Shown: positions 1 through 41,275 of the stretch, piece after piece
Numbering within the stretch: position 1 is the stretch's first letter
Layout of the letters: each line of letters begins with the position of its first letter
Source: a virus
DNA: 41,275 bases
Reading direction: 5' to 3' (one strand)
Virus record (IMG/VR): IMGVR_UViG_3300025869_000003
Span: 1-41,275 of that record
Notes under the pieces: generated by a model
The model's input: the letters and a program-made list of their open reading frames with translations, nothing else
What the model was told of the DNA's origin: nothing
Database searches by the model: none
Made by a program: the position numbers and the translations under genes

Positions 1-127
1 CCCAAACAAAGGACATGGTGCGTGGCGAGATGCCACGACGAGTGGAGCGTTCTTACTTATTGAAACATCCAAATGGGAGCTTGGTTGCCCACGGCTCCAA
101 TGAGAGCCGTGGGTAGCCTAAAATTTA
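1..127. repeat. Terminal direct repeat, exact copy of 41149..41275 (circular-closure overlap or short DTR)
   Basis: The first 127 nt (cccaaacaaaggacatggtg...gggtagcctaaaattta) reappear base for base as the last 127 nt of the window. Confidence 0.95.
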
Positions 128-345
128 AATGCAAAAAGGAGAACATAGAAGTAGTAGCTCAGGGCGAGACTTATGTGATCTCGTTAATGGCAAAGGCAGA
201 TGTGGAAACTGCCCATTGGATCTTGGAAGGGATCCAGTTTCAGAATTTAGAAGATGCAATCGCCTGGATAAAGGCGAGGTCGAATATGACTGGTACATCA
301 CCCTCGCATCAATGTGGGACGACCCCACACAAGACTTTGATTTAA
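73..345 (+). CDS. Alternative small hypothetical protein (90 aa) in the overlapping frame
   Basis: The translation looks protein-like (ENIEVVAQGETYVISLMAKADVETAHWILEGIQFQNLEDAIAWIKARS), but the 5' end runs through the strong hairpin. I cannot decide between the frames by eye. Confidence 0.3.
   Translation: MGAWLPTAPMRAVGSLKFKCKKENIEVVAQGETYVISLMAKADVETAHWILEGIQFQNLEDAIAWIKARSNMTGTSPSHQCGTTPHKTLI
88..113 (+). terminator. GC-rich hairpin; possible terminator of the + strand early operon that ends at 41137
   Basis: Perfect 10-bp arms cccacggctc / gagccgtggg with the 6-nt loop caatga. It is duplicated at 41236..41261. No clear U-tract follows. A weaker 6-bp hairpin (cgtggc-gagat-gccacg) lies at 21..37. 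Confidence 0.35.
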
Positions 346-365
346 ACTTAGAAAAACAAATATGA
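129..365 (+). CDS. Small hypothetical protein (78 aa, Cys-rich CDLVNGKGRCGNC); mutually exclusive with the 73..345 frame
   Basis: Its stop overlaps the ATG of the next gene in an ATGA junction (362..365), the coupling style used throughout this genome. It starts after the 88..113 hairpin. No SD is visible. Confidence 0.35.
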   Translation: MQKGEHRSSSSGRDLCDLVNGKGRCGNCPLDLGRDPVSEFRRCNRLDKGEVEYDWYITLASMWDDPTQDFDLNLEKQI

Positions 366-682
366 ATATTAAGCATAATAATCCGGTAGTAGCAGATTTA
401 GTTAATCAAATTGAGATTAACTCAGACAATTTGATGAAAGTAAATTTGATGATTCAAATGTTTGATTTACCCAACTCAGACGAGATGAAACCCGCCCAAA
501 TTGGTAGAAAGATGGGCATTCCCGATGCATCCGTCCGTAAGCTAGAACAGCGAGCAAAAGCTAAACTCAATACTGAGTACCAAGCTATGCTTAATGAGGA
601 ACAAAGACTTTTAGATAAACACACGAAGGGCGATCAAGATCCTTCAATAAACTCAGGAGAACAAAAAATATGGCAAAATTGA
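362..682 (+). CDS. Small sigma-70 region-4-like HTH protein (106 aa)
   Basis: KPAQIGRKMGIPDASVRKLEQRAKAKL matches the region 4.2 HTH pattern (eIa..lgis..tVr....rA..kL). The protein is too short to hold region 2. Confidence 0.55.
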   Translation: MNIKHNNPVVADLVNQIEINSDNLMKVNLMIQMFDLPNSDEMKPAQIGRKMGIPDASVRKLEQRAKAKLNTEYQAMLNEEQRLLDKHTKGDQDPSINSGEQKIWQN

Positions 683-2864: not shown

Positions 2865-3932
2865 ATGAACATTATTAACGAAGAAGACTTGTCAGATATA
2901 TCGACTAGAAAGCTCATTGCTGAGTATCAGGGTATCAATCAAAAGATTGCTCTCCTTGAAATTGAGATTGAGGAACGAAAGAGGGATTTAACCTTCAATG
3001 ATAACTATAAGCGTGAGCTTCGATCTCTTGAAGGCAAGTCCAGCAGAATTAAAGCTGACATCATTAATGGTCATAGACAAATGATGGGTAAGGCTGTCGG
3101 TTATTGCATTAATAAATATGGCGTATGGGATCATGATAAGGGCAAAAGGGTTCCGTTGCATGACCTCAGAGGATTTAGTCAATCAAAAGACAAATACGGA
3201 AAAGTCGTTGAAGTCGATGACGATGAACTTAAATCAGAAGCGTTGTGTCAGTTCCAAAGGACATTACACAAATTTGACTTGAGCAAAGAGAATAGCGACT
3301 TCAGCCAAAATGCCTTCAGAGATATATGCACTCATATAAAAAGACTTTTTGGTATTGCTGGAATGAAAACAAAAAAGAGAAAAGCTATTTGGGCAGAGCA
3401 ATGCTTACAAAAGTTGGTTAATGTCAGAAAGAATGAATGTTTAAGACAAGGCAGAGAAGTTAAATTTAGCGAGGTTGCTAAGATACTTGGCATTAAACAA
3501 AAAGTCGTAGATGGATTGCTATCAATATGCTCTCATACTGAGTCGCTTTACTTGGAAGATATAAAAGGCGGTGGAGTAAAAAGTGACTACTATGATAACG
3601 GCTTGGAAGAAGATTGCCGCGCGGAAGTTGATACCAATGCCAAGGACGATTGGCTTCAGCAAAACGCTGAAAAAATTTGCTCCAGAAAAGAACTTGATGT
3701 TTTAGCCCACCGCCTCATGGAGCCAAAATTATATCTTGTAAGTATTACATCCACTACAGAAGAGTTTCCGGTCGTTGATAATCGTATTAAGGAAATTGAA
3801 AATTTAATCAGTCAAAACAAGTACGATGAAAGATTAGTTGATATGCTCAAAGACTTCTTCGGTTTTGAGCCAAGATCCACTCAGGAACCCGATGTCGATT
3901 TGCTAATCAGACTTGGGATATACGATAACTAA
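2865..3932 (+). CDS. Divergent sigma-70-family-like transcription factor (putative)
   Basis: SEALCQFQRTLHKFDLSKENSDFSQNAFRDICTHIKRLF resembles sigma region 2 (gL..a..kFd...g..Fs.ya...I...I.r). VKFSEVAKILGIKQKVVDGLL and SRKELDVLAHRL resemble regions 3 and 4.1. The region-2 match is interrupted by an insertion. Confidence 0.4.
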   Translation: MNIINEEDLSDISTRKLIAEYQGINQKIALLEIEIEERKRDLTFNDNYKRELRSLEGKSSRIKADIINGHRQMMGKAVGYCINKYGVWDHDKGKRVPLHDLRGFSQSKDKYGKVVEVDDDELKSEALCQFQRTLHKFDLSKENSDFSQNAFRDICTHIKRLFGIAGMKTKKRKAIWAEQCLQKLVNVRKNECLRQGREVKFSEVAKILGIKQKVVDGLLSICSHTESLYLEDIKGGGVKSDYYDNGLEEDCRAEVDTNAKDDWLQQNAEKICSRKELDVLAHRLMEPKLYLVSITSTTEEFPVVDNRIKEIENLISQNKYDERLVDMLKDFFGFEPRSTQEPDVDLLIRLGIYDN

Positions 3933-29059: not shown

Positions 29060-29562
29060 TTGCCGTCCTCCTTGAATTGGGTGAGGCATCTTTGATCCAA
29101 TCCATAGCTCCAACCATAGCCGTAATCTACTTTATTATCCTCTTTGACTAATTCGCTCTTCCAAGCCCAACCTTTAATCTCAACAACTGATCCTTGTACT
29201 ACGCATAAGACATAGAAATCCACATCAGGGTTATCTTTTAATGTGCAAAGCAACTGAGAGGTTTGATTCTTTGTTGATTTAACATCGTATCGCTTTCCCT
29301 TGTAGACGCCGTCTTGGGATCCGCTTCTTGGACTCCATCCAATGTCAGGGAATAGATTGAAATGCTTTGCGAAAGCGTATTCTCCCATAAAGCCTAAAAC
29401 ATCAGCATCAGCTCCGTCCTGATTGCCCATTTTCGCGTCTTTTACATTGTTGCCACGAGCAACCAAGCTTCGGTTTCTGCCAACCATTTGGCAGTACTGA
29501 ATCTCAGAATGATCGAGTTCTACTTTAATGCCATCAACTAGCTTTTTGTTTATAATTGCCAT
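29056..29562 (-). CDS. PD-(D/E)XK (restriction-endonuclease/Hjc-like fold) protein candidate
   Basis: GFMGEYAFAKHF (Glu) ... SQDGVY (Asp) ... RYDVKST ((D/E)xK), then a hydrophobic core strand DFYVLCVV. Its ATG shares a base with the terL stop (TAATG). Confidence 0.4.
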   Translation of the reverse strand: MAIINKKLVDGIKVELDHSEIQYCQMVGRNRSLVARGNNVKDAKMGNQDGADADVLGFMGEYAFAKHFNLFPDIGWSPRSGSQDGVYKGKRYDVKSTKNQTSQLLCTLKDNPDVDFYVLCVVQGSVVEIKGWAWKSELVKEDNKVDYGYGWSYGLDQRCLTQFKEDGK

Positions 29563-31190
29563 TAGTATCCTCCAGCTCCGGTCGAGACCAATTCATGATC
29601 TTCGTAGTATTTGTAATTCCCTATTGCGACGTACCTGAGTGAATCGACTCCATCTTTGCAGACTCCTTTTGGCCCATGCTCTACCTGATAGTTAGAACAG
29701 CAATGGATCGTATTACCGCACTTGTCGCTGAATATAAGCTTTGAGTGATTATCGAAACCAATGGGTTTCGATGTATCGTAAGCTAAAAGTGAATTGATTG
29801 CCTGAAGACCAGTTTCAATGTCTAAGCCTTCGGCTGGATTTACATAAATTTCTTCATCAGCAAGGTCGCTTATGATGTTGGAAGTCCCTTCTGATTTTTG
29901 ATAGCTCGCAGATCCAAGACGAGGGTCTATGATCATATCAACATTCTCAAGCCCCTTGGTCATTTCCCTGATTACTTCAGCATAATCAGCGATTCCATAG
30001 CCGTTTGGCTGGCAAGCTTCCCCAGGTCTTCCCTGAGTTCCTTTCTCCATATCAGCCCATGCTCCATATGAAGGATCAGGGTATTCGTCTATGACATAGT
30101 GAGTCCCATTTGCGGAGATTCCTACCAGTATCATGAACCAAGGTTTTGCCCCAGCCGGATCAATTGAAAGGACATATGTACATGGATTGTCCTTCGGGTT
30201 TTTGATTATGGGAATCTCGCTATGTTTCATGATGACCTTGTCATCAAGATTTCTGAAAACTGTGTTAGCTGGCTTGGTCGGGACTCCATAAGCCCTTGTT
30301 AAAATCTCATCACGATTTGCTCCTTTAAGCTGATTCTTCGTAGCTTCCCAAGAATTGTAAGGATTCTCCTTTGTGTGAAAATAGACGATTCGAGCGTTGC
30401 GGATACTATGCTGTAAAACTGGAACTTCTTCATTGTTGAGAAGTTCAGCTTTCTTGGTTTCAAGAGTCCTAGCTCCGGTCAAATATTGGCTAACTACATT
30501 TGTCCAACCTGAGACCGTTGTGAAGCTACTGATAATACGAGCTGGGATTCCTTTAGAATCCGCTCTAGTAAGACAGCGATAGCGAAGTGTAGAAAGCCAT
30601 GAAAGGTTATACTCTTCGTCAAGCCAGCAACCTATTGAATGAGTTCCAGCAACTGGATCATCTATCAATCCGCATTCTCCACCTTCAACTGTTTTAATGT
30701 CTTGTTGGAAGTTGCGAAATACGCATTGGCTCTTATTCGGAAGTATAAAAGATCCGGAGGTAAAGCCGTTCTTATTTGAATAAGAGACGTAATAGGTTCT
30801 TGAGCGACCAAGCTTTTTGAACTCTTTGGGGAGGTAATGATAAATGATCGCTTGTTGATGAGCGATTGAGTTTTGAGAGGATGTCGTGAAACACCAAATT
30901 GTCGCTCCAGCGTTTTTGACTAAACATTCGACTACTCGCTTCGCACAAAAATTTGTTTTCGCAGAGCGGTTGCCTCCACATATTAAAAGCTCTGAATGAT
31001 CTGCGAGTTGATCGTCAGCAAGTTTCCAATGCGGTAATTCTGTTCCAAAGCGATATGGGTCTTCTCGCTCTCTTTCGATAGCTCCTTCTCTTCGCTCCCA
31101 ATATTGCAGAAGCTTCTCTGCTCCCATAGCGATTTGTTCCTTTTTTGAGGGAACTTCTAACAAGGGGTGCGGTGTCCATATCAAACTCAT
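29562..31190 (-). CDS. terL: Terminase large subunit
   Basis: Walker A LICGGNRSAKT, Walker B-like GCWLDEEY and nuclease-domain LSIDPAGAKPW. It is 542 aa and is the first long gene of the late operon. Confidence 0.85.
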   Translation of the reverse strand: MSLIWTPHPLLEVPSKKEQIAMGAEKLLQYWERREGAIEREREDPYRFGTELPHWKLADDQLADHSELLICGGNRSAKTNFCAKRVVECLVKNAGATIWCFTTSSQNSIAHQQAIIYHYLPKEFKKLGRSRTYYVSYSNKNGFTSGSFILPNKSQCVFRNFQQDIKTVEGGECGLIDDPVAGTHSIGCWLDEEYNLSWLSTLRYRCLTRADSKGIPARIISSFTTVSGWTNVVSQYLTGARTLETKKAELLNNEEVPVLQHSIRNARIVYFHTKENPYNSWEATKNQLKGANRDEILTRAYGVPTKPANTVFRNLDDKVIMKHSEIPIIKNPKDNPCTYVLSIDPAGAKPWFMILVGISANGTHYVIDEYPDPSYGAWADMEKGTQGRPGEACQPNGYGIADYAEVIREMTKGLENVDMIIDPRLGSASYQKSEGTSNIISDLADEEIYVNPAEGLDIETGLQAINSLLAYDTSKPIGFDNHSKLIFSDKCGNTIHCCSNYQVEHGPKGVCKDGVDSLRYVAIGNYKYYEDHELVSTGAGGY

Positions 31191-31233
31191 TCACAACCAT
31201 ATTTGCGGTCTTCGAGATGAATCGTGACAAATT
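31191..31233 (-). promoter_or_regulatory. Conserved bipartite element immediately upstream of terL (copy A)
   Basis: The - strand reads AATTTGTCACGAT-N15-CAAATATGG-ttgtga-ATG. The same boxes at the same spacing occur at 37022..37064 (+). An A9 run (plus strand T9, 31239..31247) lies just upstream. Confidence 0.6.
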
Positions 31234-31308
31234 GGAAATTTTTTTTTGTTTGAGCGAACTGGTCAGCGGAAAATCGGGCTGGCTTTCTCGACCCCCCTCC
31301 CCCCTACC

Positions 31309-31332
31309 CGATGGAACAAATTCGTTCCATCG
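31309..31332. promoter_or_regulatory. Perfect palindrome CGATGGAAC-aaattc-GTTCCATCG (operator/activator site candidate)
   Basis: The 9-bp arms and 6-bp spacer were read directly. Related copies lie at 34790..34808 and 35015..35034. A C6-T-C6-TA-C3 tract abuts it at 31292..31309. Confidence 0.6.
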
Positions 31333-31492
31333 AGCGACCAACTAAGATGAGGATCCGCTATTTCAATAGGGTATCAGGCGGTAGAGTCAGGGACTTTGAG
31401 TCTTCTTATGATGGATCCCAGCATAGTTGATGGAAACTTTCTGTTCACTTGCACCTATAATCTTAGATAGGTGTACACTAATCTAACTATTA

Positions 31493-31711
31493 CTAATCTT
31501 TAGCTTTCTTACCTTTTTGGAATATCCAATTAATGCTCTTATGGACTACAGCAATTGCTACTATAACCCCAACTACAAAGCCATATGCCTTAGCCTCAAA
31601 TTCAATCAAGGAATTGATCAGGATTTCAAGTCGAAGCTTTCCAAGCGTGATCCAAGCAATGGATCCGACATACAAGGCAAATACGCATAATCTCCTTAAA
31701 CTCTCAAACAT
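31493..31711 (-). CDS. Small two-TM protein (72 aa) with a basic C terminus; holin-like
   Basis: LCVFALYVGSIAWITL and GFVVGVIVAIAVV helices with a QKGKKAKD tail. It lies upstream of the terL operon on the same strand. Confidence 0.4.
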   Translation of the reverse strand: MFESLRRLCVFALYVGSIAWITLGKLRLEILINSLIEFEAKAYGFVVGVIVAIAVVHKSINWIFQKGKKAKD

Positions 31712-31720
31712 AACTTAATC

Positions 31721-32227
31721 ATGCCTACAAAGAAAAAACGAATCAATATCATTCCTGATAATCTACCAGCTCTCACAGCTCCCGAAGAAACTTGCCCTAG
31801 TTTGTTTACTGGTCAAAAGCTTGCAGAGAAGGATCCTGAGAAGTATGCGAGGATCGTTCAGAACCTGGGAGAAGGTAAGCCTTTGTCGAGGATCGCTAAG
31901 TCGGAGAAGGTCGCTCCTGAAACTGTCTCCGCTATCCTAAAGCGAGAGTCAAAGAGTGTGGATGCTGTCCAATCATTGACCGCTGGCTTGACCAGCTATG
32001 CATCGCAAACTTGCCTGATGAAGATCATCGAGAAATTAGATCGAGATGAGATTCCGGCTGGAGTGTTACCAATCACCTTTGGCATCCTTCGTGACAAGGA
32101 GAAGAATGATCTTGGTATGGCGACCAGCGTGATCGAACATAAAGCATCAGTCAGCATAGATGACGTCAGGCGAGAATTAGCTGAGATGAAGAAGGATGCT
32201 ATTGAGGTTGATACGAAGGATCTGTAA
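31721..32227 (+). CDS. HTH DNA-binding protein (168 aa); regulator (or small-terminase-like) candidate
   Basis: EGKPLSRIAKSEKVAPETVSAILKRE is an HTH. The gene lies between the lysogeny and packaging modules. The family was not identified. Confidence 0.4.
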   Translation: MPTKKKRINIIPDNLPALTAPEETCPSLFTGQKLAEKDPEKYARIVQNLGEGKPLSRIAKSEKVAPETVSAILKRESKSVDAVQSLTAGLTSYASQTCLMKIIEKLDRDEIPAGVLPITFGILRDKEKNDLGMATSVIEHKASVSIDDVRRELAEMKKDAIEVDTKDL

Positions 32228-32234
32228 TAATTAG

Positions 32235-32816
32235 TTAGCCTCTTCCATCAACCATCTCACCTTCTTTATATTCAAACTCATAATCTTTATGGAAAGTTCC
32301 GTCTTTATCAATTGAGTCCCAATATTGAACCATTATTCCGTTTCCATCTATAATTTTTGTTTCATCACATTTATCACCATTTGGCTTCCATACCTCACAT
32401 GAAATCATTTTGCCATCTCTGTAAAAAGCATGAGACTTTTTCCGCTTTCGATCCATATCATACCACTCGATCCAATATCCGTCCCTCTCATCTTTTTCAT
32501 TGAACTTGCCTTCAAAGGGTTCAGGTCTGCTATCAGTAGTTTCAGGCTCTCCAAACTCTTCACGCCAAAAGTTTTTTACGCAGTAAAAAGCAATTACAGT
32601 TACAATGATAAGAACTATTGGTCGTTCAAGGTTTATCAGAACTAATGGAAGCCATACTCCTATTGCAATACAAGCGCTAGCAACCTTTTCATTTCTGTTT
32701 ATGAAGAATATTCCAAAGATAAAACTAAGCCCTGCTACCCAACCACACCAAGCTGGGAAATCTCCAAAGAAATAACTATCGCTTGGATCAGGAACTGCTC
32801 CAATGATTTCAATCAT
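32235..32816 (-). CDS. Membrane protein with a C-terminal MORN-variant (YwqK-like) repeat region
   Basis: Three N-terminal hydrophobic helices. The C-terminal GYWIEWYDMDRKRKKSHAFYRDGKMISCEVWKPNG...GIMVQYWD...EFEYKEGEMVDG resembles MORN-variant repeats. Confidence 0.5.
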   Translation of the reverse strand: MIEIIGAVPDPSDSYFFGDFPAWCGWVAGLSFIFGIFFINRNEKVASACIAIGVWLPLVLINLERPIVLIIVTVIAFYCVKNFWREEFGEPETTDSRPEPFEGKFNEKDERDGYWIEWYDMDRKRKKSHAFYRDGKMISCEVWKPNGDKCDETKIIDGNGIMVQYWDSIDKDGTFHKDYEFEYKEGEMVDGRG

Positions 32817-33168
32817 TCTTATAAACTAATATCCAGTTGATTAGCTTGTGTACTGCAAACCCAATAGGAATAATTAAAATTGGAGAGAGGATACACAACC
32901 AAGCCAATCTTGTAATCTCCTTTTTATGTGTTCTGTATTCTTCTAACTCACTTTTTACTTCATCAATTTTAGTTATGTCATACTTAGCTGGATCAAGTAT
33001 GACTTCTTCAATCAAATCAGCTTCTTTATCATTCTTAATTGTCATGCTGTATGGAACATAATCGAGTTTATTTACTCCAATTATTGGAACCAATATTGTA
33101 AAAAATATTACAACAGCCCAAGATGCTGTGAGAAGTAAGCGTCTTATAATTTCGTACCCTTTAGACAT
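32809..33168 (-). CDS. Two-TM membrane protein (119 aa)
   Basis: LLLTASWAVVIFFTILVPIIGV and LAWLCILSPILIIPIGFAV helices flank an acidic loop. It overlaps the downstream gene by 8 nt. Confidence 0.5.
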   Translation of the reverse strand: MSKGYEIIRRLLLTASWAVVIFFTILVPIIGVNKLDYVPYSMTIKNDKEADLIEEVILDPAKYDITKIDEVKSELEEYRTHKKEITRLAWLCILSPILIIPIGFAVHKLINWILVYKND

Positions 33169-33200
33169 AGTTTTATTTTAGCATATATAACTATATAGCA

Positions 33201-33229
33201 AAGAAGGCTACCCTTAAGGTAGCCTTCTT
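33201..33229. terminator. Perfect 12-bp-stem hairpin downstream of int
   Basis: aagaaggctacc-cttaa-ggtagccttctt. No U-tract on either strand. Confidence 0.45.
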
Positions 33230-33230
33230 A

Positions 33231-33279
33231 ATAGCTGTAATAGCTATAATAGCTTTATAGCTTGGTCGCTTACATAGCT
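33231..33279. repeat. Array of five ATAGCT hexamers (spacing 9, 9, 8, 17 bp)
   Basis: aATAGCTgtaATAGCTataATAGCTttATAGCTtggtcgcttacATAGCTa, read directly. The hexamer starts are 33231, 33240, 33249, 33257 and 33274. Confidence 0.6.
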
Positions 33280-33452
33280 ATTTTGCGGTGATAAGTCGTA
33301 CTATGCTCACAATAGCGGAATTATTTTCAGAAATATTAATATTGGAGACCCTGATGCCTATTTAAGCTTCGGTTGCTCAATGAATGGGAATATATGGGTT
33401 GCTACCACAAAGGGACTGATTTGACAGAAGGGTCTCCATTTAAAAGCATCAT

Positions 33453-34808
33453 CTACTTCTTCGGCAGTATATCCCAAAACTGCTTACAAGTTCCAGCGGT
33501 GACTCCATCAACAGCCCGATAGTTTGAATCGATAATAGCCGGGGAATTTCCAGCCCACATGGCGGTCTTATTCTTATCGTTATTGATCTTGAGATAATAA
33601 GTGATTCCGGTGTGACGCATGACATCCCTTATCCAAGTAGGACGATCTTCGCTGTTGGAATCCTTGAGCTTGTGTTTCCACTCCTTAGCCATGTTTGGAT
33701 CTAACGAAGTGATTTTAAGGCGATAGCCAGCAACAGCTCTTATCAAAGCAAAAAGCTTCTTTGCATTGGCTGGGGCAACGGATCCCTCTTTTGCAGAAAG
33801 TGGCTTGAGCCACTTTATGCAAGTTGGATGCATATCAACTGAGCGGCGTCGCTGTCCCTTACCCTCAATCACAAAGCATGGCTTCTTATCGTCCCAAACG
33901 AATTTCTTCCAATCCAAGCGGAGGATCTCTGATGGGCGAACTGCTGAGAAGATAGCTAAAACGAAATACGGCAACATGGATCCGTTATCAACTTCTCCAG
34001 CGACCTTGAGCAACTTCTTGACCTCAGGGATACTGAGAGCCTCAGGCTCCAGCATCGCTGGATTTGGCTTATCAACTTTAGAGACCGGATTCTTGACCAG
34101 CCAATCCTTCTTCTCACAAAACTGAAAGAACGCGTGTATAATCGCATAATGATTGGATCTAGTCTTATCGACCCACTCTTTATTCTCATCGTAAATGTAA
34201 TCCTCAATCTCATCGACTGAATACTCGCTTACATTTCTTACATCAAAAGCATCAGAGAAATTCCTAAGCTTCTGTTTTGTCTTATCCTGATGGTCTTTAG
34301 AAGTCCTTTTAAGTTTTGGATTTTTGAGATACCTCTCAATCGCCTGATCCAATGTTATAGATCCAAAGTTTGGATCGAAGTGGTCGCAGTAATATTTGAC
34401 TGCATCGACAAGCTTACGAGTTTGAAAATCGGTCGGAAACTTTGACTTCAAAAGATTGAAAGCGTTCATCGCATCGCTCTCCTGAAGTGTTGATAAATGA
34501 GTTGGTCGAACATTCGTATTGAGGTGATAAACTCTCCACTCGTCTTGCTGGTCTTTACGAAAGGTAATCGCTTCTTCCTTCGTGTTAAACTTCCTTCTCA
34601 GTCTCTCTCTTTTGCCGTTTCTTCCTCGCTTTGGAAGGATCCCATAAACTTCCCATAGCTTCTTTTCGGGTAAATACTTTGGAGCCTTGATGGCAGAAAT
34701 GTCCCAATCTTGCTTCATGATCTCTATGCTTTCTTTTAATTTATTAGTGTTTGAGCGATGTTCCGATGGAACGAAATGGAACGCTCTCGATGGAAATAAG
34801 TGTTCCAT
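33453..34808 (-). CDS. int: Tyrosine integrase with an N-terminal AP2-like arm-binding domain (alternative start at 34718)
   Basis: Catalytic signature VRPSEILRLDW (Arg), VMRHTGITYYL (HxxR region) and IIDSNYRAV (Tyr). The N-terminal KKLWEVYGILPK...RRKFNTKEEAITF is arm-domain-like. The first 30 codons of the long ORF run through the repeat cluster at 34757..34808. Confidence 0.9.
   Translation of the reverse strand: MEHLFPSRAFHFVPSEHRSNTNKLKESIEIMKQDWDISAIKAPKYLPEKKLWEVYGILPKRGRNGKRERLRRKFNTKEEAITFRKDQQDEWRVYHLNTNVRPTHLSTLQESDAMNAFNLLKSKFPTDFQTRKLVDAVKYYCDHFDPNFGSITLDQAIERYLKNPKLKRTSKDHQDKTKQKLRNFSDAFDVRNVSEYSVDEIEDYIYDENKEWVDKTRSNHYAIIHAFFQFCEKKDWLVKNPVSKVDKPNPAMLEPEALSIPEVKKLLKVAGEVDNGSMLPYFVLAIFSAVRPSEILRLDWKKFVWDDKKPCFVIEGKGQRRRSVDMHPTCIKWLKPLSAKEGSVAPANAKKLFALIRAVAGYRLKITSLDPNMAKEWKHKLKDSNSEDRPTWIRDVMRHTGITYYLKINNDKNKTAMWAGNSPAIIDSNYRAVDGVTAGTCKQFWDILPKK
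34757..34808. promoter_or_regulatory. Cluster of ATGGAAC/GTTCCAT half-sites, including the palindrome CGATGGAA-N-GTTCCATCG (arm-type or operator sites)
   Basis: gatGTTCCgATGGAACgaaATGGAACgctctcgATGGAAataagtGTTCCATcg. It lies about 70 to 120 bp from the tRNA-like core. Confidence 0.55.
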
Positions 34809-34876
34809 CGATCTTCCGCTGCGTCAAACGCTTTTTTTAAGAAAGCTCTGAAACCCTGATGAATAGTGGGCTAGAA

Positions 34877-34923
34877 TGGAGGCGCGGGTCGGAATCGAAC
34901 CGACGAATAGAGGATTTGCAGTC
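34877..34923 (-). other. attP core candidate: 3' fragment of a tRNA-Cys(GCA) gene (not a complete tRNA)
   Basis: The reverse complement reads GA-CUGCAAA-UCCUC-UAUUC-GUCGG-UUCGAUU-CCGAC-CCGCGCC-U-CCA. That gives an anticodon loop with GCA, a perfect T arm, the 3' acceptor strand, the discriminator U typical of tRNA-Cys, and CCA. Upstream sequence cannot form the 5' acceptor or D arm. It is adjacent to int. Confidence 0.65.
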
Positions 34924-35014
34924 GTGGGCTACAAAGCCTATAATTTCATAAATCCTTGATTATTAACAAAAGTTAATTTTTGAAATACCAAGGAATACCA
35001 AGAAATACAAGCAA

Positions 35015-35034
35015 ATGGAACAAAAGTGTTCCAT
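35015..35034. promoter_or_regulatory. Palindrome ATGGAAC-aaaagt-GTTCCAT (third copy), on the other side of the att core
   Basis: Read directly. The right flank GTTCCATCGAG is identical to the 31324..31334 copy. Confidence 0.55.
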
Positions 35035-35127
35035 CGAGAGTAGAGGACTTTTGACGTCAAACCATCTATTTCTGATCTAAAATGGTTATTTTCAATCTGT
35101 TTATTGAGCGTCATAAATCGCATAAAA

Positions 35128-36954
35128 TTACTGCTTGTGTTTCTCACGATATTCATAAGCTTCCCTACCAAGTCTCAGATCTCGTTTAATTTGCTCAATT
35201 CTTTGAGCAGTTTTTCTTGGTAAATTTGTTAGAAGCCATGTTGCCATCTCCCAAGCGGTTATTCCACTCATACCTTTGAAGGTTGTCCGAACAAGATATG
35301 TTTTACCACCTACTTCCTCCTCCTTGTAATGAGATTTTGGAAACAACTTTAACCAAGACTGGTAAATGGGGTGAGCAGTAGGCGGTGTTGTGACACCTTC
35401 CTCATGCTCCTCATTGATAATACTGCTAATGAATTGCTTTGCATCTAAAGGAACTCTTTTGGGAACTTTCACTTCATCATATGCAGATGTGTATGCTTGC
35501 TTCCGGTATTTAATCGTTTTTTCAGATTCATGGTTCTTACAGCAATCTAGGAAGAACAATGTTTCTTTCAGGTTAATACCATTTCCACCTTCTTCTTCCA
35601 TATACTTGAGAAGACATTCTGCAACGAACTCAACCTTTTCAGGATCAAGCTCAGGCTCTGAAGATTCAGACAAACGCTCAAGCTCTTGCTGTAGAGTTTT
35701 TACTACTTCAGGATCAGGAGTAACTTCAGTTGCCTCTTGATCAGATTGATTCTTTCCCTCTCCGCTTAATGCAACCAAATCTGTATAAGTGTCATCATCT
35801 TGCCATGAACATATCAGATCCGGATTCTTCATCAGAATTTCAAGATAGTGAAACTGCTGTTCAATAATGGACTCCTCATCTCTCTCATCAGCGTTCCACT
35901 CATGAGCAATGTTATGTATAAGATCTCGCCAAAAATCACGTGCAAATTGTAGCTCCTTGAATTTCTCGATCTTCTTTTCCCAGCCAAGCCTCTCTTGAGA
36001 AGTAAGAACCTTCTTGGCTCTCTCGAAATGCATAAGCCAATTTTTGTATCCGCTCAGGTAATTGTCGGCTGTATTCAATTGATTACTAATCTCCTGAACA
36101 CTTACCTTCTGAACAGCTTCATAACCCATGAACTCAAAATAAATATCTTCCCCAAGAAAGAAACTTTTTGAGAATAGCGAAATAACACTAGGCTCAAGAC
36201 TTGGGAGAACATCAATCGGCTCCCTCAATTCGACATTAATTGTCGAGTCATCAACAACCTTTATCAAAGATTCCCTAACGACATTAGAGTTATGAGTGAA
36301 CCCCCCTACTCGTACATTTACCTGAGCAGTAGCTGGCAAAAGATACTTTTTATTGATTCTGTAATATCCATTAGTTTCTAGCAGAAAAATTAGAGCTTCT
36401 TTGCATTTTGTATCCGTTGGTACTATAAGCTCACCATCTTTTCGACTTCCCCATCTGTCTATACCTTGAATCTGTTTTGCTCTGACATAATTTCCAGTCA
36501 AAGAAATAGGAACACCATGTGTCACCCGTGGGTAACTCAAGTGTTGAAAAACTCTATCCGAAGCCATGAATCCGATTAGATTCATATGGCTGATAATATT
36601 TAGCAAGCCGTTGGCATCTTTGGCTTCTTTGTACAGCTCATCATTTAGCAAACCTGACTCTAAAGCTATGTCCAAATAACTAGTATAATTAGCTTCAAAA
36701 TCTTTCAGTTGTTCATCCTGAAGATATTGATCCTTATAAATTGGAGTATGCTCAATCCAAGCGGTTTCTGCATCTTTGTTACGCCCCTCTGTAAGTCGCT
36801 GGAATCTCATTGAGAATACAACATCTCCCCAAAGTTCCATTACATTCTCTGTATAGAGATTCTCGAATTGTAGAAAACGAAGTTTGAACTTTTCAAACTC
36901 ATCATCCCCTCTTGATCTACCTATCAATAGCCCCTCTCTACCCCTTTTTGCCAT
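35128..36954 (-). CDS. Large orphan protein (608 aa) at the immunity-region position next to attP
   Basis: An uninterrupted ORF, divergent from the early operon across a 110-bp palindrome-containing region. I saw no Walker, nuclease or clear HTH motif. Confidence 0.6.
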   Translation of the reverse strand: MAKRGREGLLIGRSRGDDEFEKFKLRFLQFENLYTENVMELWGDVVFSMRFQRLTEGRNKDAETAWIEHTPIYKDQYLQDEQLKDFEANYTSYLDIALESGLLNDELYKEAKDANGLLNIISHMNLIGFMASDRVFQHLSYPRVTHGVPISLTGNYVRAKQIQGIDRWGSRKDGELIVPTDTKCKEALIFLLETNGYYRINKKYLLPATAQVNVRVGGFTHNSNVVRESLIKVVDDSTINVELREPIDVLPSLEPSVISLFSKSFFLGEDIYFEFMGYEAVQKVSVQEISNQLNTADNYLSGYKNWLMHFERAKKVLTSQERLGWEKKIEKFKELQFARDFWRDLIHNIAHEWNADERDEESIIEQQFHYLEILMKNPDLICSWQDDDTYTDLVALSGEGKNQSDQEATEVTPDPEVVKTLQQELERLSESSEPELDPEKVEFVAECLLKYMEEEGGNGINLKETLFFLDCCKNHESEKTIKYRKQAYTSAYDEVKVPKRVPLDAKQFISSIINEEHEEGVTTPPTAHPIYQSWLKLFPKSHYKEEEVGGKTYLVRTTFKGMSGITAWEMATWLLTNLPRKTAQRIEQIKRDLRLGREAYEYREKHKQ

Positions 36955-36992
36955 GAGATTATTGTGGGGTTTTCGCCTCTTTTGTACAAGCC

Positions 36993-37064
36993 ATTTTAAT
37001 GAAATAAAACTTTTTTTGACAAATTTGTCACGATCTCTTCACAGCCCCTCAAATATGGCTGTGT
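36993..37064. promoter_or_regulatory. Divergent control region: 14-bp perfect palindrome TGACAAATTTGTCA (37017..37030), a leftward TTGTCA-18-TAAAAT promoter candidate, and the rightward bipartite element (copy B, 37022..37064)
   Basis: The palindrome was read directly. On the - strand, TTGTCA (37017..37022) and TAAAAT (36993..36998) are 18 nt apart. On the + strand, AATTTGTCACGAT-N15-CAAATATGG-ctgtgt-ATG. Confidence 0.5.
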
Positions 37065-37538
37065 ATGAAACAGAACCAAGAAGTAACAATCGTAATAGAC
37101 CCAGGTTCCAGCGGTGGATATGCAATCTGCTTTGGAGGCTTAAAGGCAATTACATTACACAATCTTCAAAGCCCATCTGACTTTATAGATCATGTACTAG
37201 AGCTAGAAGAAATCCATAAAGGATTTCTTCGATCTGTAGTGGAGGATGTTCCAAGTTACGCTGGAAAAGATGTTCCATCTTATACCAGCTTCAAGCTTGG
37301 TCGCTCATGCGGATTTCTTGAAGGAGTCCTTAGAGCTAGACAGATTCCGGTCGAATTTATCAGCCCAAGAAAATGGCAGAAAAATTTAGGCGGATTAAAA
37401 GGCTTATCCGGATCTCCTCGCAAGCGTGTTCTTAAAGACCACGCCTCCCGAAAGTACCCACTTTTGAAGCCAACATTAAAGACCTGCGATGCTCTTCTGA
37501 TGGCTGACTATCACTTTAATTCCAACCCAAATATATAA
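37065..37538 (+). CDS. RuvC-like Holliday-junction resolvase
   Basis: VTIVIDPGSSGGYAI (GIDPG..tG motif), VVEDVP (Glu) and CDALLMADY (DA..iA). Confidence 0.7.
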   Translation: MKQNQEVTIVIDPGSSGGYAICFGGLKAITLHNLQSPSDFIDHVLELEEIHKGFLRSVVEDVPSYAGKDVPSYTSFKLGRSCGFLEGVLRARQIPVEFISPRKWQKNLGGLKGLSGSPRKRVLKDHASRKYPLLKPTLKTCDALLMADYHFNSNPNI

Positions 37539-37542
37539 AATT

Positions 37543-38076
37543 ATGGCTAAAATAATAAATAATAGTGCAGACTACGGGGATGCCCGTGGTTTTAGATTAG
37601 AAAACGCTGGGCCAACTGGCTCCTTTCCAGCTCGCTTAGTCGATATCGAGGATAACTTCGATGTTGATGTGCAGAAGTATGGTGGAGCGATTGGTGAGAC
37701 TGAAAAGAAGAACGTTACAGAGTTCCTTTTCGCCTACAATGCCGATGGTCAAACTCATCTCGTCAAGAGCTGGGAAATGACTCAATCGGGAGGCGAGAGA
37801 TCTGCTTTGTACAAACTTCTTTCTCAGATGCTTGGTGAGCCTCCAGTCTTTGATGGTAACTACGATTACTGCGATGAGATTGGACAAACTTGCCAAGTTA
37901 CTGTTGCGAGCAAAACGTCAAAGAAAGGAAAGACCTACAATTGCATTGCTAGTGTCGCTCCTCTTCTTAGCGAGTTAATGGATAAGGCTCCAAAGCTTGA
38001 GGATGTAGAGATCCCTGACGGCAGAAGAGTTGCATTACCTTCCGCTGATCAAGATGCATTTGCCATTGAGGAATAA
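37543..38076 (+). CDS. ssDNA-binding / DUF669-like recombination accessory protein (putative)
   Basis: The N-terminal PTGSFPARLVDIED pattern and the acidic C-terminal tail DQDAFAIEE are typical of SSB-type proteins. It lies between the resolvase and the exonuclease. Confidence 0.35.
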   Translation: MAKIINNSADYGDARGFRLENAGPTGSFPARLVDIEDNFDVDVQKYGGAIGETEKKNVTEFLFAYNADGQTHLVKSWEMTQSGGERSALYKLLSQMLGEPPVFDGNYDYCDEIGQTCQVTVASKTSKKGKTYNCIASVAPLLSELMDKAPKLEDVEIPDGRRVALPSADQDAFAIEE

Positions 38077-38079
38077 GTC

Positions 38080-38853
38080 ATGGCTCATTGCTACGATAAA
38101 GATGGAAACCCCCACTTCAACTTGACCCCAGCTCAAGCGAAGAAGGAAGGTCTATTCTTTAGCGTTACTGAACATCAAGGTATCCTAGCAAAAAAGCCAC
38201 TTGAGCTTTGGAAGCTAGGTCAACACTTGAAGACTGCTTTTCAATATCCTCCCCGAAATGGGGAGGATGAGCAGTCGTTCATTAAACGCGTAAAGGGTAT
38301 TACTTGGAAAAACGGAGGAGGGGCAGCAGAACTCGGAACTGCAATCCACGCTGGCATTGAGTCAGTATTGAATAAGGAGAAGAAGGTTGAGGATCTTGAT
38401 GTAGATCTTCGCAAATATGTCGCTCCAGCAATCCGTTATTTCGAGTCCAAGAAATTTGAAATCTTGGATGTAGAAAAAGTTGTTGTGAATGAAAAACAAG
38501 GATATGCCGGAACTGCTGATGCAGTAGGCAAAACTCCATGTGGTAAGAAATTCATATTGGATTGGAAATCTAGAAAGTTTGGTAGTCGAAAAGTCGTTCC
38601 ATACGATGGTCAACCCGAACAAGTAAGTGCGTATGGAGCTGGCTATTTTGGAGAAGACGCTGTCAAAAACGAAGAGGTTTGGGGCATTAATGTCTTCGTA
38701 TCAACTGACAGATTTACCAGCGATGGTGAGTCTGAAATCGTTGTAACCAGCTACTCACCTAAAGACATGGCTAAAAACTACGAAACCTTCTGCCTAGTCT
38801 GCGAGATTTGGAGAAGAGTTGAGAAGTACGATCCTAGAAAGGAATGCGCATAA
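38080..38853 (+). CDS. PD-(D/E)XK exonuclease, Cas4/RecB-like
   Basis: GTAIHAGIESVL, YAGTADAVGK ... FILDWKS (D ... (D/E)xK), plus Cys4 near the N terminus and C-x2-C-x13-C at the C terminus. This cysteine pattern suggests a Cas4-type Fe-S cluster. Confidence 0.65.
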   Translation: MAHCYDKDGNPHFNLTPAQAKKEGLFFSVTEHQGILAKKPLELWKLGQHLKTAFQYPPRNGEDEQSFIKRVKGITWKNGGGAAELGTAIHAGIESVLNKEKKVEDLDVDLRKYVAPAIRYFESKKFEILDVEKVVVNEKQGYAGTADAVGKTPCGKKFILDWKSRKFGSRKVVPYDGQPEQVSAYGAGYFGEDAVKNEEVWGINVFVSTDRFTSDGESEIVVTSYSPKDMAKNYETFCLVCEIWRRVEKYDPRKECA

Positions 38854-41137: not shown

Positions 41138-41148
41138 AATGATTGGTT

Positions 41149-41275
41149 CCCAAACAAAGGACATGGTGCGTGGCGAGATGCCACGACGAGTGGAGCGTTC
41201 TTACTTATTGAAACATCCAAATGGGAGCTTGGTTGCCCACGGCTCCAATGAGAGCCGTGGGTAGCCTAAAATTTA
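41149..41275. repeat. Second copy of the 127-bp terminal repeat
   Basis: Identical to 1..127. Confidence 0.95.

What the first reader, a model, noticed from the sequence alone, without database searches (positions are those of the whole stretch)
37022..37064. Identical bipartite element in front of terL and the ruvC-like gene: AATTTGTCACGAT-N15-CAAATATGG-N6-ATG
- **Copy B (+ strand):** 37022..37064 reads AATTTGTCACGAT ctcttcacagcccct CAAATATGG ctgtgt ATG.
- **Copy A (- strand):** 31233..31191 reads AATTTGTCACGAT tcatctcgaagaccg CAAATATGG ttgtga ATG.
- **Conservation:** a 13-mer and a 9-mer are conserved at exactly the same spacing from each other and from the start codon, while the 15-nt spacer is unrelated. 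That is far beyond chance for two short intergenic regions.
- **Promoter reading:** neither gene has an SD, and box 2 ends 6 nt before the ATG. If box 2 acts as a -10-like element, the transcripts would be leaderless or nearly so. The TTGTCA to AAATAT distance (20 nt) does not fit a standard sigma-70 promoter. The element may therefore be read by one of the phage sigma-like proteins or by a dedicated regulator.
- **Context:** in copy B, box 1 is the right half of the perfect palindrome TGACAAATTTGTCA. In copy A it is preceded by an A9 run. Each copy also contains an out-of-frame ATG inside box 2.
- **Implication:** the late packaging operon and the early recombination operon would be under common control.
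Basis: seen in the sequence. Interest (0 to 1): 0.65.

Follow-up and report, generated by a model that had tools for sequence, protein, structure and literature searches.

The report
Phage-specific promoter heading two operons
The repeated two-box motif is real and is most likely a phage-specific promoter that starts the two big operons of a temperate marine phage; it is probably read by the phage's own fast-evolving sigma-like proteins, because related phages have swapped in different boxes at all their copies together.

Summary
**Observation: confirmed.** AATTTGTCACGAT-N15-CAAATATGG-N6-ATG occurs exactly twice. One copy is at 37022-37058 (+), before the RuvC-like gene. The other is at 31233-31197 (-), before terL. 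Chance expects none.

**Setting.** The window is a circular 41-kb temperate phage genome. The two copies head its two convergent operons.

**Comparative evidence.**
- Each related genome carries its own box 1 at 2-4 operon heads, with the same spacing and unrelated spacers.
- Examples are AGTTCACGAT, ATTCTGAACG and ACTTAGG.
- One prophage has the same T>C change in box 1 at both sites.
- Near-identical strains change the spacer but not the boxes.

**Candidate readers.**
- The early operon ends with a divergent sigma-70-family gene (2865-3932).
- It also holds a small protein resembling sigma region 4 (362-682).
- These two are the fastest-evolving early genes.

**Best reading.** This is a -35/-10-type promoter read by a phage sigma-like factor. 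The start codon sits at or near the transcription start.

**Limits.** No 5' end could be mapped, and the reader protein is inferred.

**Novelty.** A new variant of a known kind (phage sigma with cognate promoters).

**Host.** Probably marine Verrucomicrobiota.

The parts
37022..37034 (+). Copy B, box 1 (-35-like block) AATTTGTCACGAT
   Evidence: In prophage relative L047 it reads AATTTGCCACGAT.
37035..37049 (+). Copy B, 15-nt spacer; fixed length, free sequence
   Evidence: It is unrelated to the spacer of copy A. It differs at 8 of 15 positions in L047 while the boxes are kept.
37050..37058 (+). Copy B, box 2 (-10-like block) CAAATATGG, followed by cTGTGt and the ATG at 37065
37011..37017 (+). 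T7 run just upstream of box 1, resembling an UP element
   Evidence: An A- or T-run precedes box 1 in most copies of most relatives.
37017..37030 (.). Perfect palindrome TGACAAATTTGTCA overlapping box 1. Its left half read on the - strand (TTGTCA) is the -35 of a sigma-70-like site, TTGTCA-18-TAAAAT, pointing at the 608-aa gene.
   Evidence: The palindrome is not conserved in L047.
37065..37538 (+). RuvC-like Holliday junction resolvase, first gene of the + strand early operon. The operon runs across the end of the circular window to 3932.
   Evidence: PHROG 1770 at 4.6e-15. The window is circular.
31221..31233 (-). Copy A, box 1 AATTTGTCACGAT
31206..31220 (-). Copy A, 15-nt spacer
   Evidence: It differs at 7 of 15 positions in the near-identical strain L016 (99% TerL), where both boxes are intact.
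31197..31205 (-). Copy A, box 2 CAAATATGG, followed by tTGTGa and the ATG at 31190
31239..31247 (-). A9 run upstream of copy A, resembling an UP element
   Evidence: It is conserved upstream of terL in relatives.
29562..31190 (-). Large terminase subunit, first gene of the - strand structural operon (31190 down to 3929)
   Evidence: Homologues carry PF03237 Terminase_6N. Walker A GGNRSAKT and Walker B WLDEE are present. Synteny with Phage C75C1 supports the position.
2865..3932 (+). Divergent sigma-70-family protein (355 aa), last gene of the early operon; main candidate reader of the boxes
   Evidence: It matches NCBIfam RpoD_Cterm over residues 129-331 at E 1e-3. The positional homologue in L044 matches Sig70-cyanoRpoD at 2.8e-11 and PHROG 351 sigma factor at 8e-11. 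A profile search reaches RpoD and members carrying Sigma70 r2 and r3. All top 50 Foldseek PDB hits are sigma chains (the model is of low confidence).
362..682 (+). 106-aa protein with a helix-turn-helix like sigma region 4.2; second candidate reader or co-factor
   Evidence: Pfam Sigma70_r4_2 at 8.4e-4 and TIGR02937 at 1.3e-3, both below the curated cut-offs. PHROG sigma-factor families match at 0.005-0.03.
31422..31455 (+). Remnant of a third promoter pointing away from terL: box-2-like CATAGTTGA, then GAAACTTTCTGTT and CACTTGCACC. Its box 1 has been lost through a deletion of about 22 nt.
   Evidence: In most relatives this position carries a full copy of that genome's own box 1-N15-box 2.

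Best explanation
**What it is.** The element is a phage-specific promoter of the bipartite (-35/-10) type.
- Box 1 plays the part of a -35 element.
- Box 2 (CA..A/T-rich) plays the part of a -10 element.
- The 15-nt spacer only sets the distance between them.
- An A/T run upstream acts like an UP element.

**Where it sits.** The element stands at the head of each of the two large convergent operons of a circular 41-kb temperate phage.
- One operon holds recombination, replication and regulation genes. It starts at the RuvC-like gene.
- The other holds the structural and packaging genes. It starts at terL.

**Who reads it.** The boxes are read by a specificity factor that the phage encodes itself, not by the host's housekeeping sigma.
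- The most likely reader is the divergent sigma-70-family protein at 2865-3932, bound to host core RNA polymerase.
- The small protein resembling sigma region 4 at 362-682 may act with it or instead of it.

**Consequences.**
- The sigma gene lies in one of the operons that the promoter drives, so the circuit would feed back positively on itself.
- Both operons would be switched on by the same factor.
- The start codon lies 13-15 nt after the start of box 2, so transcripts should begin at or within a few bases of the ATG (leaderless or nearly so).

**Shown:** the repeat, its position, its within-genome identity and between-genome replacement, and the presence and fast evolution of the sigma-like genes.

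For: **1. The repeat is beyond chance.**
- There are two exact copies where none is expected.
- No further copy exists in the genome.

**2. Position.**
- Both copies lie directly before the first gene of an operon and point into it.
- The window is circular, so the two operons cover most of the genome and converge near 3930.

**3. Constraint on the boxes, not the spacer.**
- Strain L016 (99% TerL) differs at 7 of 15 spacer positions and at no box position. L037 and L040 each have one spacer change.
- Prophage L047 differs at 8 of 15 spacer positions but at only 1 of 22 box positions.

**4. Concerted change.**
- In the prophage contig L047/L058, both the terL copy and the ruvC copy read TTGCCACGAT where the window has TTGTCACGAT.

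**5. Replacement between genomes, identity within them.** All copies keep the same N15 spacing.
- L010 and L013 carry AGTTCACGAT three times.
- L044 carries ATTCTGAACG four times.
- L011 carries ACTTAGG three times.
- L007 carries CTATCGTTTC twice.
- L021 carries GTTTCCGAGGT twice.
- L020 carries TTTCTGATG twice.
- L034 carries TTTTTCCGTCTAAA twice.
- For terL-upstream against divergent-promoter regions, the longest shared word averages 9.3 within a genome and 5.6 between genomes. The permutation p is about 5e-5.

**6. A sigma-70-family gene is present.**

**7. The sigma-like genes evolve fastest.**
- Against L047 the sigma is 61% identical and the region-4-like protein 58%, while most other early proteins are 74-94%, with two lower.
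- Against L045 both are about 26%, while most others are 49-80%, with one at 32%.
- Against L044 neither gives a BLAST hit, while most others are 45-68%, with one at 24%.

**8. The -35-reading helix varies with box 1.**
- I aligned the region 4.2 helix by eye with E. coli sigma-70 VTRERIRQIE (my own knowledge of that protein).
- It reads VVDNRIKEIE in the window and VIDNRIKEIE in L047, whose box 1 is nearly the same.
- It reads AIQKRIGEIE in L045 and NPESRVRSLK in L044, whose box 1 sequences differ.

**9. A standard sigma-70 reading does not fit.**
- TTGTCA lies 19-20 nt from any -10-like hexamer.
- The consensus scan lists no site on these strands.
- The box 1 sequences of relatives do not resemble TTGACA.
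Against: - No transcription start could be mapped.
  - Metatranscriptome contigs show that the early operon is transcribed from at least 37162 onward.
  - A few RNA-library contigs cross the promoter regions: 31218-31442 in X31 and 36947-37071 in X27. These could be DNA carry-over, read-through or the opposite strand.
- The window's own sigma matches sigma families only weakly: E about 1e-3, below the curated cut-offs. The structure model has a mean pLDDT of 57.
- Only four genomes give a sigma-and-box pair, so the sigma-box correlation is anecdotal.
- The single T>C change in box 1 of L047/L058 comes with an unchanged sigma recognition helix but a changed helix in the region-4-like protein.
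- A sigma encoded inside an operon that it drives needs some other trigger, and none was found.
- Some relatives lack the bipartite element and carry repeated sites instead (TGGACA, TTGTRGCAAA).
- In the window the third promoter has lost box 1, which shows that the element can be dispensed with at that site.
Confidence: 0.62

Rival explanations
1. Box 1 is the binding site of a small phage activator. The candidate is the 106-aa protein resembling sigma region 4, working like the RinA/ArpU-type late activators. It would recruit host holoenzyme, and the host sigma would read box 2. The 355-aa sigma would then have other targets.
For: - The 106-aa protein has a helix-turn-helix like region 4.2.
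- It is as hypervariable as the sigma.
- Its recognition helix changes between the window and L047 (IPDASVRKLEQRAKAKL to ISDGFVRKLQKRASAKL), where box 1 changes by one base at both sites. The sigma helix does not change there.
- Its helix is similar in the window and L045, whose box 1 sequences share TCACGAT.
- Box 2 varies much less than box 1 across genomes (always CA, then A/T-rich), as expected if a conserved host factor reads it.
- RinA has region-4 similarity and activates the promoter upstream of terS (PMC3152322).
Against: - Box 2 does differ between genomes: CAAATA, CATAAT and CACTA.
- It begins with an invariant C where a host -10 would be expected to have T.
- The sigma-family matches of the 106-aa protein are all below the curated cut-offs.
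- No case is known to me of such an activator also driving the early operon that encodes it.
Confidence: 0.22
2. Box 1 is an operator for an immunity repressor encoded in the lysogeny module between the two copies. The arrangement would resemble lambda OL/OR flanking cI. Box 2 would be a host-sigma -10 element.
For: - The two copies flank the integrase module (31190-37065) and point outward, like PL and PR.
- Box 1 specificity differs between related phages, as immunity types do.
- The 608-aa gene divergent from ruvC is hypervariable (23% identity).
- In copy B, box 1 is half of a perfect palindrome.
Against: - Box 1 is not a dyad in most genomes.
- The window palindrome is not kept in L047 (10/14 symmetric, with uncompensated changes).
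- In the window and most relatives there is one site per promoter, in fixed register with box 2, rather than arrays of operators. L044 has two box 1 copies about 105 nt apart upstream of ruvC.
- No helix-turn-helix repressor was found in the module by Pfam or PHROGs.
- The same element also heads a third operon inside the module in relatives.
- Box 2 also shifts between genomes.
Confidence: 0.1
3. The repeat has no regulatory role. It would be a leftover of a recent duplication or gene conversion between the two intergenic regions, or part of a packaging or recombination site.
For: There are only two copies in this genome, and the terL copy lies near a conserved G-rich tract that could be a packaging site.
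Against: - The spacers and flanks of the two copies are unrelated, which a duplication or conversion tract would not produce.
- The boxes are kept while spacers drift in close strains.
- The same architecture, with other box sequences, recurs at the same gene heads in at least ten distinct related genomes.
Confidence: 0.04

Closest known systems
Phage-encoded sigma factors with their own promoter consensus (Bacillus phage SPO1 gp28 and gp33/34; T4 gp55 late promoters). These are cited in PMC3152322 and are otherwise from my own knowledge.
   Same: - A phage gene of the sigma family redirects host core polymerase to phage-only promoters that do not match the host consensus.
- The promoters head the late or structural genes.
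   Different: - Here the phage is temperate.
- The same element heads both the early (recombination and replication) operon and the late operon, and the sigma gene lies inside one of them.
- The promoter specificity has diversified within one phage lineage.
- Nothing has been shown biochemically.
RinA / ArpU / LtrC-type late activators of temperate phages of Gram-positive bacteria (PMC3152322)
   Same: - A small phage protein with similarity to sigma region 4 acts at the promoter just upstream of the packaging genes.
- Different RinA types are proposed to recognise divergent upstream sequences.
   Different: - No sequence-family match to RinA or ArpU was found.
- The element here is bipartite, at a fixed distance from the start codon.
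- It also heads the early operon.
- A full-length sigma-family gene is present as well.
ECF-type sigma/promoter pairs: mutually orthogonal -35/-10 specificities and autoregulated sigma genes (my own knowledge)
   Same: - The promoter is bipartite with a fixed spacer.
- The -35 block co-varies with region 4 of the cognate sigma.
- The sigma gene is driven by its own promoter type.
   Different: - The 355-aa protein is not ECF-like. It aligns with RpoD-type regions 2-4, including region 3.
- The boxes do not resemble GAAC/CGTC-type ECF motifs, apart from the TGAAC in the L044 type.
Lambda-type PL/PR with shared operators flanking the immunity region (my own knowledge)
   Same: - Two outward-facing promoters flank the lysogeny module and share one recognition sequence.
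- That sequence differs between related phages.
   Different: - The shared sequence is not a dyad and is not repeated in tandem.
- It is in fixed register with a second box and with the ATG.
- No repressor gene was identified.
Leaderless mRNAs, with the transcription start at the A of the AUG (my own knowledge)
   Same: - There is no Shine-Dalgarno sequence.
- The start codon lies a fixed 13-15 nt after the start of the -10-like block in most genomes.
   Different: - The 5' end has not been mapped.
- The third promoter of relatives has a leader of about 35 nt.
- Relative L059 has about 80 nt between the corresponding position and the terL ATG, and no bipartite element was identified there.

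Membership tests
Bipartite sigma-70-family promoter (-35/-10 type) read by a dedicated sigma | Two conserved blocks separated by a spacer of fixed length and free sequence | tested here: met
   The element is 13 nt + N15 + 9 nt in both window copies, with unrelated spacers. The N15 spacing holds in at least ten related genomes.
Bipartite sigma-70-family promoter (-35/-10 type) read by a dedicated sigma | Located upstream of, and oriented with, the first gene of a transcription unit | tested here: met
   The ORF map shows the copies before ruvC (+ operon) and terL (- operon). The positions are the same in relatives.
Bipartite sigma-70-family promoter (-35/-10 type) read by a dedicated sigma | A cognate sigma-family protein is encoded, and it varies with the boxes | tested here: inconclusive
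   A sigma-family gene is present and is hypervariable. The region 4.2 helix differs where box 1 differs. Only four genome pairs are available, and the small region-4-like protein fits equally well.
Bipartite sigma-70-family promoter (-35/-10 type) read by a dedicated sigma | Transcription starts 5-9 nt downstream of the -10 block and depends on the boxes | not testable with these tools
   Only assembled metatranscriptome contigs are available. They are patchy and may include DNA.
Canonical housekeeping promoter TTGACA-17(+/-1)-TATAAT | Both hexamers match the consensus at 16-18 nt spacing | tested here: not met
   TTGTCA lies 19-20 nt from CAAATA or AAATAT. The consensus scan lists no site on the ruvC or terL strands at these places. 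Box 1 of relatives is unlike TTGACA.
Repressor operators of an immunity region (lambda OL/OR type) | Dyad-symmetric sites, usually several per promoter | tested here: not met
   Box 1 is asymmetric in most genomes. In the window and most relatives there is one site per promoter; L044 has two box 1 copies about 105 nt apart upstream of ruvC. The palindrome in copy B is degraded in L047.
Repressor operators of an immunity region (lambda OL/OR type) | A DNA-binding repressor gene lies in the module between the promoters | tested here: not met
   Pfam and PHROG scans of the module's proteins found no helix-turn-helix or repressor family. Remote homologues could have been missed.
Repressor operators of an immunity region (lambda OL/OR type) | The same recognition sequence at both outward promoters, differing between related phages | tested here: met
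RinA/ArpU-type late activator site | A small phage protein of the RinA/ArpU family is encoded | tested here: not met
   The 106-aa protein matches only sigma region 4 models, and weakly. No RinA or ArpU family appears in Pfam, PHROGs or NCBIfam.
RinA/ArpU-type late activator site | The site lies upstream of the packaging genes and activates late transcription | not testable with these tools
   The position upstream of terL fits, but activity cannot be tested here.
Leaderless transcript | The 5' end of the mRNA coincides with the start codon | not testable with these tools
   Indirect evidence only. There is no Shine-Dalgarno sequence, and the ATG or GTG lies 13-15 nt after the start of box 2 in the window and most relatives. 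One RNA contig ends at 31196, 6 nt before the terL ATG, but this is a single observation.

The most novel reading that the evidence does not exclude
**Proposed reading.** The sigma-like gene or genes and their promoters form a self-contained, self-activating transcription switch.
- The switch would decide between prophage silence and lytic growth.
- No factor means that neither operon is expressed.
- A pulse of factor locks both operons on.

**Why the diversification matters.** The promoter and factor specificity has diversified among closely related phages of marine Verrucomicrobiota. Co-resident or superinfecting relatives would then be unable to cross-activate each other. This would be a sigma-based counterpart of lambdoid heteroimmunity.
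Probability: 0.2. Interest if true: 0.75.

Novelty: new variant of a known kind. Interest (0 to 1): 0.55.

Why it matters
- It gives a concrete, testable promoter and factor pair for a group of uncultured temperate phages whose hosts are probably marine Verrucomicrobiota. Almost nothing is known about transcription signals in that phylum.
- The natural series of box 1 variants, each paired with a variant sigma-like protein, is a ready-made set of possibly orthogonal promoter/factor pairs.
- It is also a case study of how promoter specificity co-evolves at several loci at once.
- If the start codon really sits at the transcription start, the two main operons of the phage are translated from leaderless messages.

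Tried and rejected
- **Bacteroidota-type promoter (-33 TTTG / -7 TAnnTTTG).**
  - I considered this because the RuvC relatives are in Flavobacterium and Bacteroides phages.
  - The spacing does not fit, and relatives lack the motif.
  - The host turned out to be Verrucomicrobiota.
- **Sigma-54 reading of TTGCA in CACTTGCACC.** There is no GG element at the right distance.
- **Close phage relatives in GenBank.** There is no nucleotide match. The only TerL relative is Phage C75C1 at 32%, which has no host annotation.
- **Rfam and tRNA scans of the window.** Nothing was found.
- **First scan of genome contigs with the TerL profile.** Nothing was found.
- **Searches for relatives in viral contigs.**
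  - The RuvC-like protein and the 355-aa sigma as single proteins gave nothing.
  - Relatives were reached through the helicase, through the profile of the 285-aa protein, and through the protein profile search.
- **Metatranscriptome contigs for 5' ends.** They were too patchy, and some cross the promoters.
- **Structure of the sigma.** The model is of low confidence (pLDDT 57). The fold hits are used only as support.
- **Further copies in the window.** None was found above background.
- **The exact box pair in IMG/VR.** It occurs only in the near-identical contig.
- **The 608-aa protein as a repressor.** No family match was found for it or for its positional homologues.
Full report
**1. The observation**

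The sequence is as described.

- Copy B, on the + strand, reads AATTTGTCACGAT (37022-37034), then ctcttcacagcccct, then CAAATATGG (37050-37058), then ctgtgt, then the ATG at 37065.
- Copy A, on the - strand, reads AATTTGTCACGAT (31233-31221), then tcatctcgaagaccg, then CAAATATGG (31205-31197), then ttgtga, then the ATG at 31190.
- Allowing three mismatches, the 37-nt pattern matches only these two places. None of 100 shuffles produced a match.
- A looser scan of both strands found nothing else above background.
- Either box alone is not over-represented.
- The two spacers and the flanks are unrelated, so this is not a duplicated segment.
- The palindrome TGACAAATTTGTCA (37017-37030) is present.
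- The A9 run before copy A is present.
- Neither start codon has a Shine-Dalgarno sequence.

**2. The setting**

The last 130 or so bases of the window repeat the first, so this is a complete circular genome. The ORF map shows two long convergent transcription units.

The + strand unit runs from 37065 across the window end to 3932. It holds these genes:

- a RuvC-like resolvase (PHROG 1770, 4.6e-15) and an exonuclease;
- an AAA_25 helicase and an HTH_17 protein;
- a 106-aa protein with a helix-turn-helix like sigma region 4;
- as its last gene, a 355-aa protein.

The - strand unit runs from 31190 down to 3929. It starts with the 542-aa gene and continues through the structural genes.

The 542-aa protein has no direct family hit. 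I accept it as TerL for these reasons:

- Homologues up to 83% identical carry PF03237 Terminase_6N.
- It has Walker A and B motifs.
- Its distant homologue in Phage C75C1 sits at the head of the head-gene cluster.

Between the two copies lies an integrase module. The two copies therefore head the two operons that make up most of the phage.

**3. Related genomes**

TerL relatives at 60-100% identity were collected from IMG/VR, JGI and ENA marine metagenomes.

Upstream of terL, several features are conserved:

- the flanks, including a G6AG6 tract;
- GACCAGTTCGCTCA;
- an A-run followed by TTTCCAA.

The stretch that holds the boxes is replaced by a different sequence in each lineage. That lineage-specific sequence recurs within the same genome at other operon heads, in the same register.

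| Genome | Box 1 | Copies | Where |
|---|---|---|---|
| L010, L013 | AGTTCACGAT-N15-CA(A/T)AAT | 3 | before terL, before ruvC, and about 230 nt upstream of terL pointing the other way |
| L044 | ATTCTGAACG | 4 | operon heads |
| L011 | ACTTAGG | 3 | operon heads |
| L007 | CTATCGTTTC | 2 | operon heads |
| L020 | TTTCTGATG | 2 | operon heads |
| L021 | GTTTCCGAGGT | 2 | operon heads |
| L019 | ATTCTGAACGAT | 2 | operon heads |
| L034 | TTTTTCCGTCTAAA | 2 | operon heads |

- Across ten distinct genomes I compared the terL-upstream region with the divergent promoter region. The longest shared word averages 9.3 nt within a genome and 5.6 nt between genomes, with a permutation p of about 5e-5.
- Close strains show where the constraint lies. 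L016 (99% TerL) differs at 7 of 15 spacer positions and at no box position. L037 and L040 each carry one spacer change.
- The most telling case is a 65.5-kb prophage contig (L047 plus L058), in which most early proteins are 74-94% identical to the window's.
  - Its ruvC copy reads AATTTGCCACGAT-cttagcgcagtacct-CAAATATGG.
  - Its terL copy reads ATTTTGCCACGAT-tttgtccaaacacct-CAAATGTGG.
  - Both sites carry the same T>C change in box 1, and the spacers have drifted freely.
- The exact window box pair occurs in only one, near-identical IMG/VR contig.

**4. What reads it**

A site recognised by the host's housekeeping sigma should not be replaced wholesale between related phages while staying identical at several loci within each phage. 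That pattern points to a phage-encoded reader. Two candidates stand out.

*The 355-aa protein (2865-3932).*

- It matches RpoD-type sigma models across regions 2-4, weakly (E about 1e-3).
- Its positional homologue in L044 matches sigma models clearly: Sig70-cyanoRpoD at 2.8e-11, PHROG 351 at 8e-11, and Pfam r3 and r2.
- A profile of the family reaches proteins carrying Sigma70_r2 and r3, and reaches RpoD itself.
- A low-confidence model (pLDDT 57) finds only sigma chains among its top 50 PDB matches.

*The 106-aa protein (362-682).*

- It has a typical region 4.2 helix-turn-helix.

*Rates of change.* Both candidates are the fastest-changing early genes.

| Compared with | 355-aa sigma | 106-aa protein | Other early proteins |
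|---|---|---|---|
| L047 | 61% | 58% | mostly 74-94% (two lower: 47%, 60%) |
| L045 | about 26% | about 26% | mostly 49-80% (one at 32%) |
| L044 | no BLAST hit | no BLAST hit | mostly 45-68% (one at 24%) |

*The recognition helix.*

- I aligned it by eye with E. coli sigma-70 VTRERIRQIE (my own knowledge of that protein).
- The positions that read the -35 element are D, N, K, E in the window and in L047, whose box 1 is almost the same.
- They are Q, K, G, E in L045 and E, S, R, S in L044, whose box 1 sequences differ.
- Four genomes are too few to call this a correlation.
- The one-base change in L047/L058 goes with a changed helix in the 106-aa protein, not in the sigma.
- I therefore hold the sigma as the likelier reader and keep the small protein as a serious alternative or partner.
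- Box 2 varies less than box 1 (always CA, then A/T-rich). This matches the better conservation of regions 2-3 than of region 4 in the sigma alignment.

**5. How it most likely works**

- Box 1 acts as a -35 block and box 2 as a -10 block.
- The A/T run acts like an UP element.
- The ATG or GTG lies 13 nt (most relatives) or 15 nt (window type) after the first base of box 2. This puts the expected start at or within a few bases of the start codon.
- That fixed distance is the only evidence for leaderless transcripts.
- The third promoter of relatives has a leader of about 35 nt that contains a conserved CACTTGCACC.
- Relative L059 has about 80 nt between the corresponding position and the terL ATG, and no bipartite element was identified there.
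- The sigma gene lies at the end of one of the operons that the element heads. The circuit would therefore be self-reinforcing and would need an outside trigger, which I did not find.

**6. RNA data**

- Marine metatranscriptomes contain contigs of the early operon from 37162 onward, at depths up to about 90.
- None lies in 36400-37160 in four runs.
- One RNA contig ends at 31196, just after box 2 of the terL copy.
- Other RNA-library contigs cross the promoter regions: 31218-31442, 36947-37071, and a relative's contig running 73 nt upstream of terL.
- These are assembled contigs without strand information and may include DNA. I treat the RNA evidence as inconclusive.

**7. Rivals**

*An immunity-operator reading.*

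- For: the outward-facing geometry around the integrase module, and the lineage-specific sequence.
- Against: box 1 is not a dyad.
- Against: in the window and most relatives it occurs once per promoter, in fixed register with box 2. L044 has two copies about 105 nt apart upstream of ruvC.
- Against: the window palindrome is degraded in L047 without compensating changes.
- Against: no repressor-like protein was found in the module.
- The left half of the palindrome may instead be the -35 of a sigma-70-like site for the divergent 608-aa gene (TTGTCA-18-TAAAAT). The region-wide count of such sites is not above chance.

*A duplication or packaging-site reading.* It is excluded by the unrelated spacers and by the recurrence of the architecture with other box sequences.

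**8. Comparison with known systems**

- The closest known kind is a phage-encoded sigma with its own promoters, as in SPO1 and T4 late transcription (cited in PMC3152322).
- For the small protein, the closest kind is the RinA/ArpU-type late activators, whose C-terminal half resembles sigma region 4.
- No sequence-family membership in RinA or ArpU was found.
- Four things differ here:
  - the phage has a temperate lifestyle;
  - one element is used for both the early and the late operon;
  - the sigma sits inside its own regulon;
  - the specificity has diversified rapidly and in concert across a lineage.
- I rate this a new variant of a known kind.

**9. Host**

- Two independent prophage flanks point to marine Verrucomicrobiota.
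- Genes next to a 65%-identical sigma gene (L048) are 87% identical to a Verrucomicrobia single-cell genome.
- The redoxin gene beside the L058 prophage has its nearest named relatives in Opitutae and Opitutales MAGs, at 63-66% identity.

Noticed in passing
window 1-130 and 41146-41275: The last 130 or so bases repeat the first. The window is therefore a complete circular (or terminally redundant) genome of about 41.1 kb, and the + strand operon runs across the junction.
   Followed up: partly
window 31292-31331 (+); the same position in L002-L043: A C6TC6 tract (G6AG6 on the terL strand) lies next to a 22-nt hairpin (gatggaacaaattcgttccatc), about 100-140 nt upstream of terL. A similar G-rich tract is present in most relatives examined, down to about 60% TerL identity. 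The hairpin sequence changes but stays palindromic. It may be a packaging (pac/cos) or TerS-binding site. It is not an intrinsic terminator, because no T-run follows it.
   Followed up: no
window 31434-31455 (+); relatives: GAAAACTTT...CACTTGCACC is conserved in more than 20 relatives, 4-10 nt before the first ATG of the operon that diverges from terL, and downstream of that operon's copy of the bipartite promoter. In the window, about 22 nt including box 1 are deleted and the small gene behind the motif is missing. The role of the motif is unknown; it may be a leader or translation signal.
   Followed up: partly
window 31721-32227 (+): A 168-aa protein with an N-terminal helix-turn-helix-like stretch is 80-91% identical across relatives, far more conserved than its neighbours. 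It is transcribed divergently from terL. It is a candidate small terminase subunit, and no family matches it.
   Followed up: no
window 35128-36954 (-): A 608-aa protein is transcribed divergently from the ruvC promoter. It is hypervariable (23% identity to its positional homologues in L010 and L045, and fragmented in L047). It has no Pfam or PHROG match, and its function is unknown.
   Followed up: partly
L025, L026, L028, L039 (upstream of terL); L059 5540-5600 (- strand): More distant relatives lack the bipartite element and carry short direct repeats instead. TGGACA occurs twice before terL. TTGTRGCAAA occurs four times at the head of the early operon in L059. These look like arrays of binding sites for a different kind of regulator.
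   Followed up: no
L058 1-5111; L048 5946-11576: Relatives of this phage are integrated in contigs whose flanking genes have their nearest relatives in marine Verrucomicrobiota (FecR, redoxin, enolase-superfamily proteins, sulfatases). One flank is 87% identical to Verrucomicrobia SAG AH-558-J18. The other is 63-66% identical to Opitutae MAGs. This points to a host phylum with very few known phages. One DNA run labelled as an organism rather than a metagenome (X4) holds 96% of the window's words.
   Followed up: partly
window 37700-38500 (+): The genes just after ruvC (the 177-aa protein and the exonuclease) reach word depths of 30-90 in several marine metatranscriptome assemblies. The early operon is therefore actively transcribed in nature.
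   Followed up: partly
window 3929-10129 (-): A single 2066-aa ORF ends the structural operon and converges on the sigma gene. Relatives have ORFs of 1052-1363 aa at this position. I did not examine it further.
   Followed up: no
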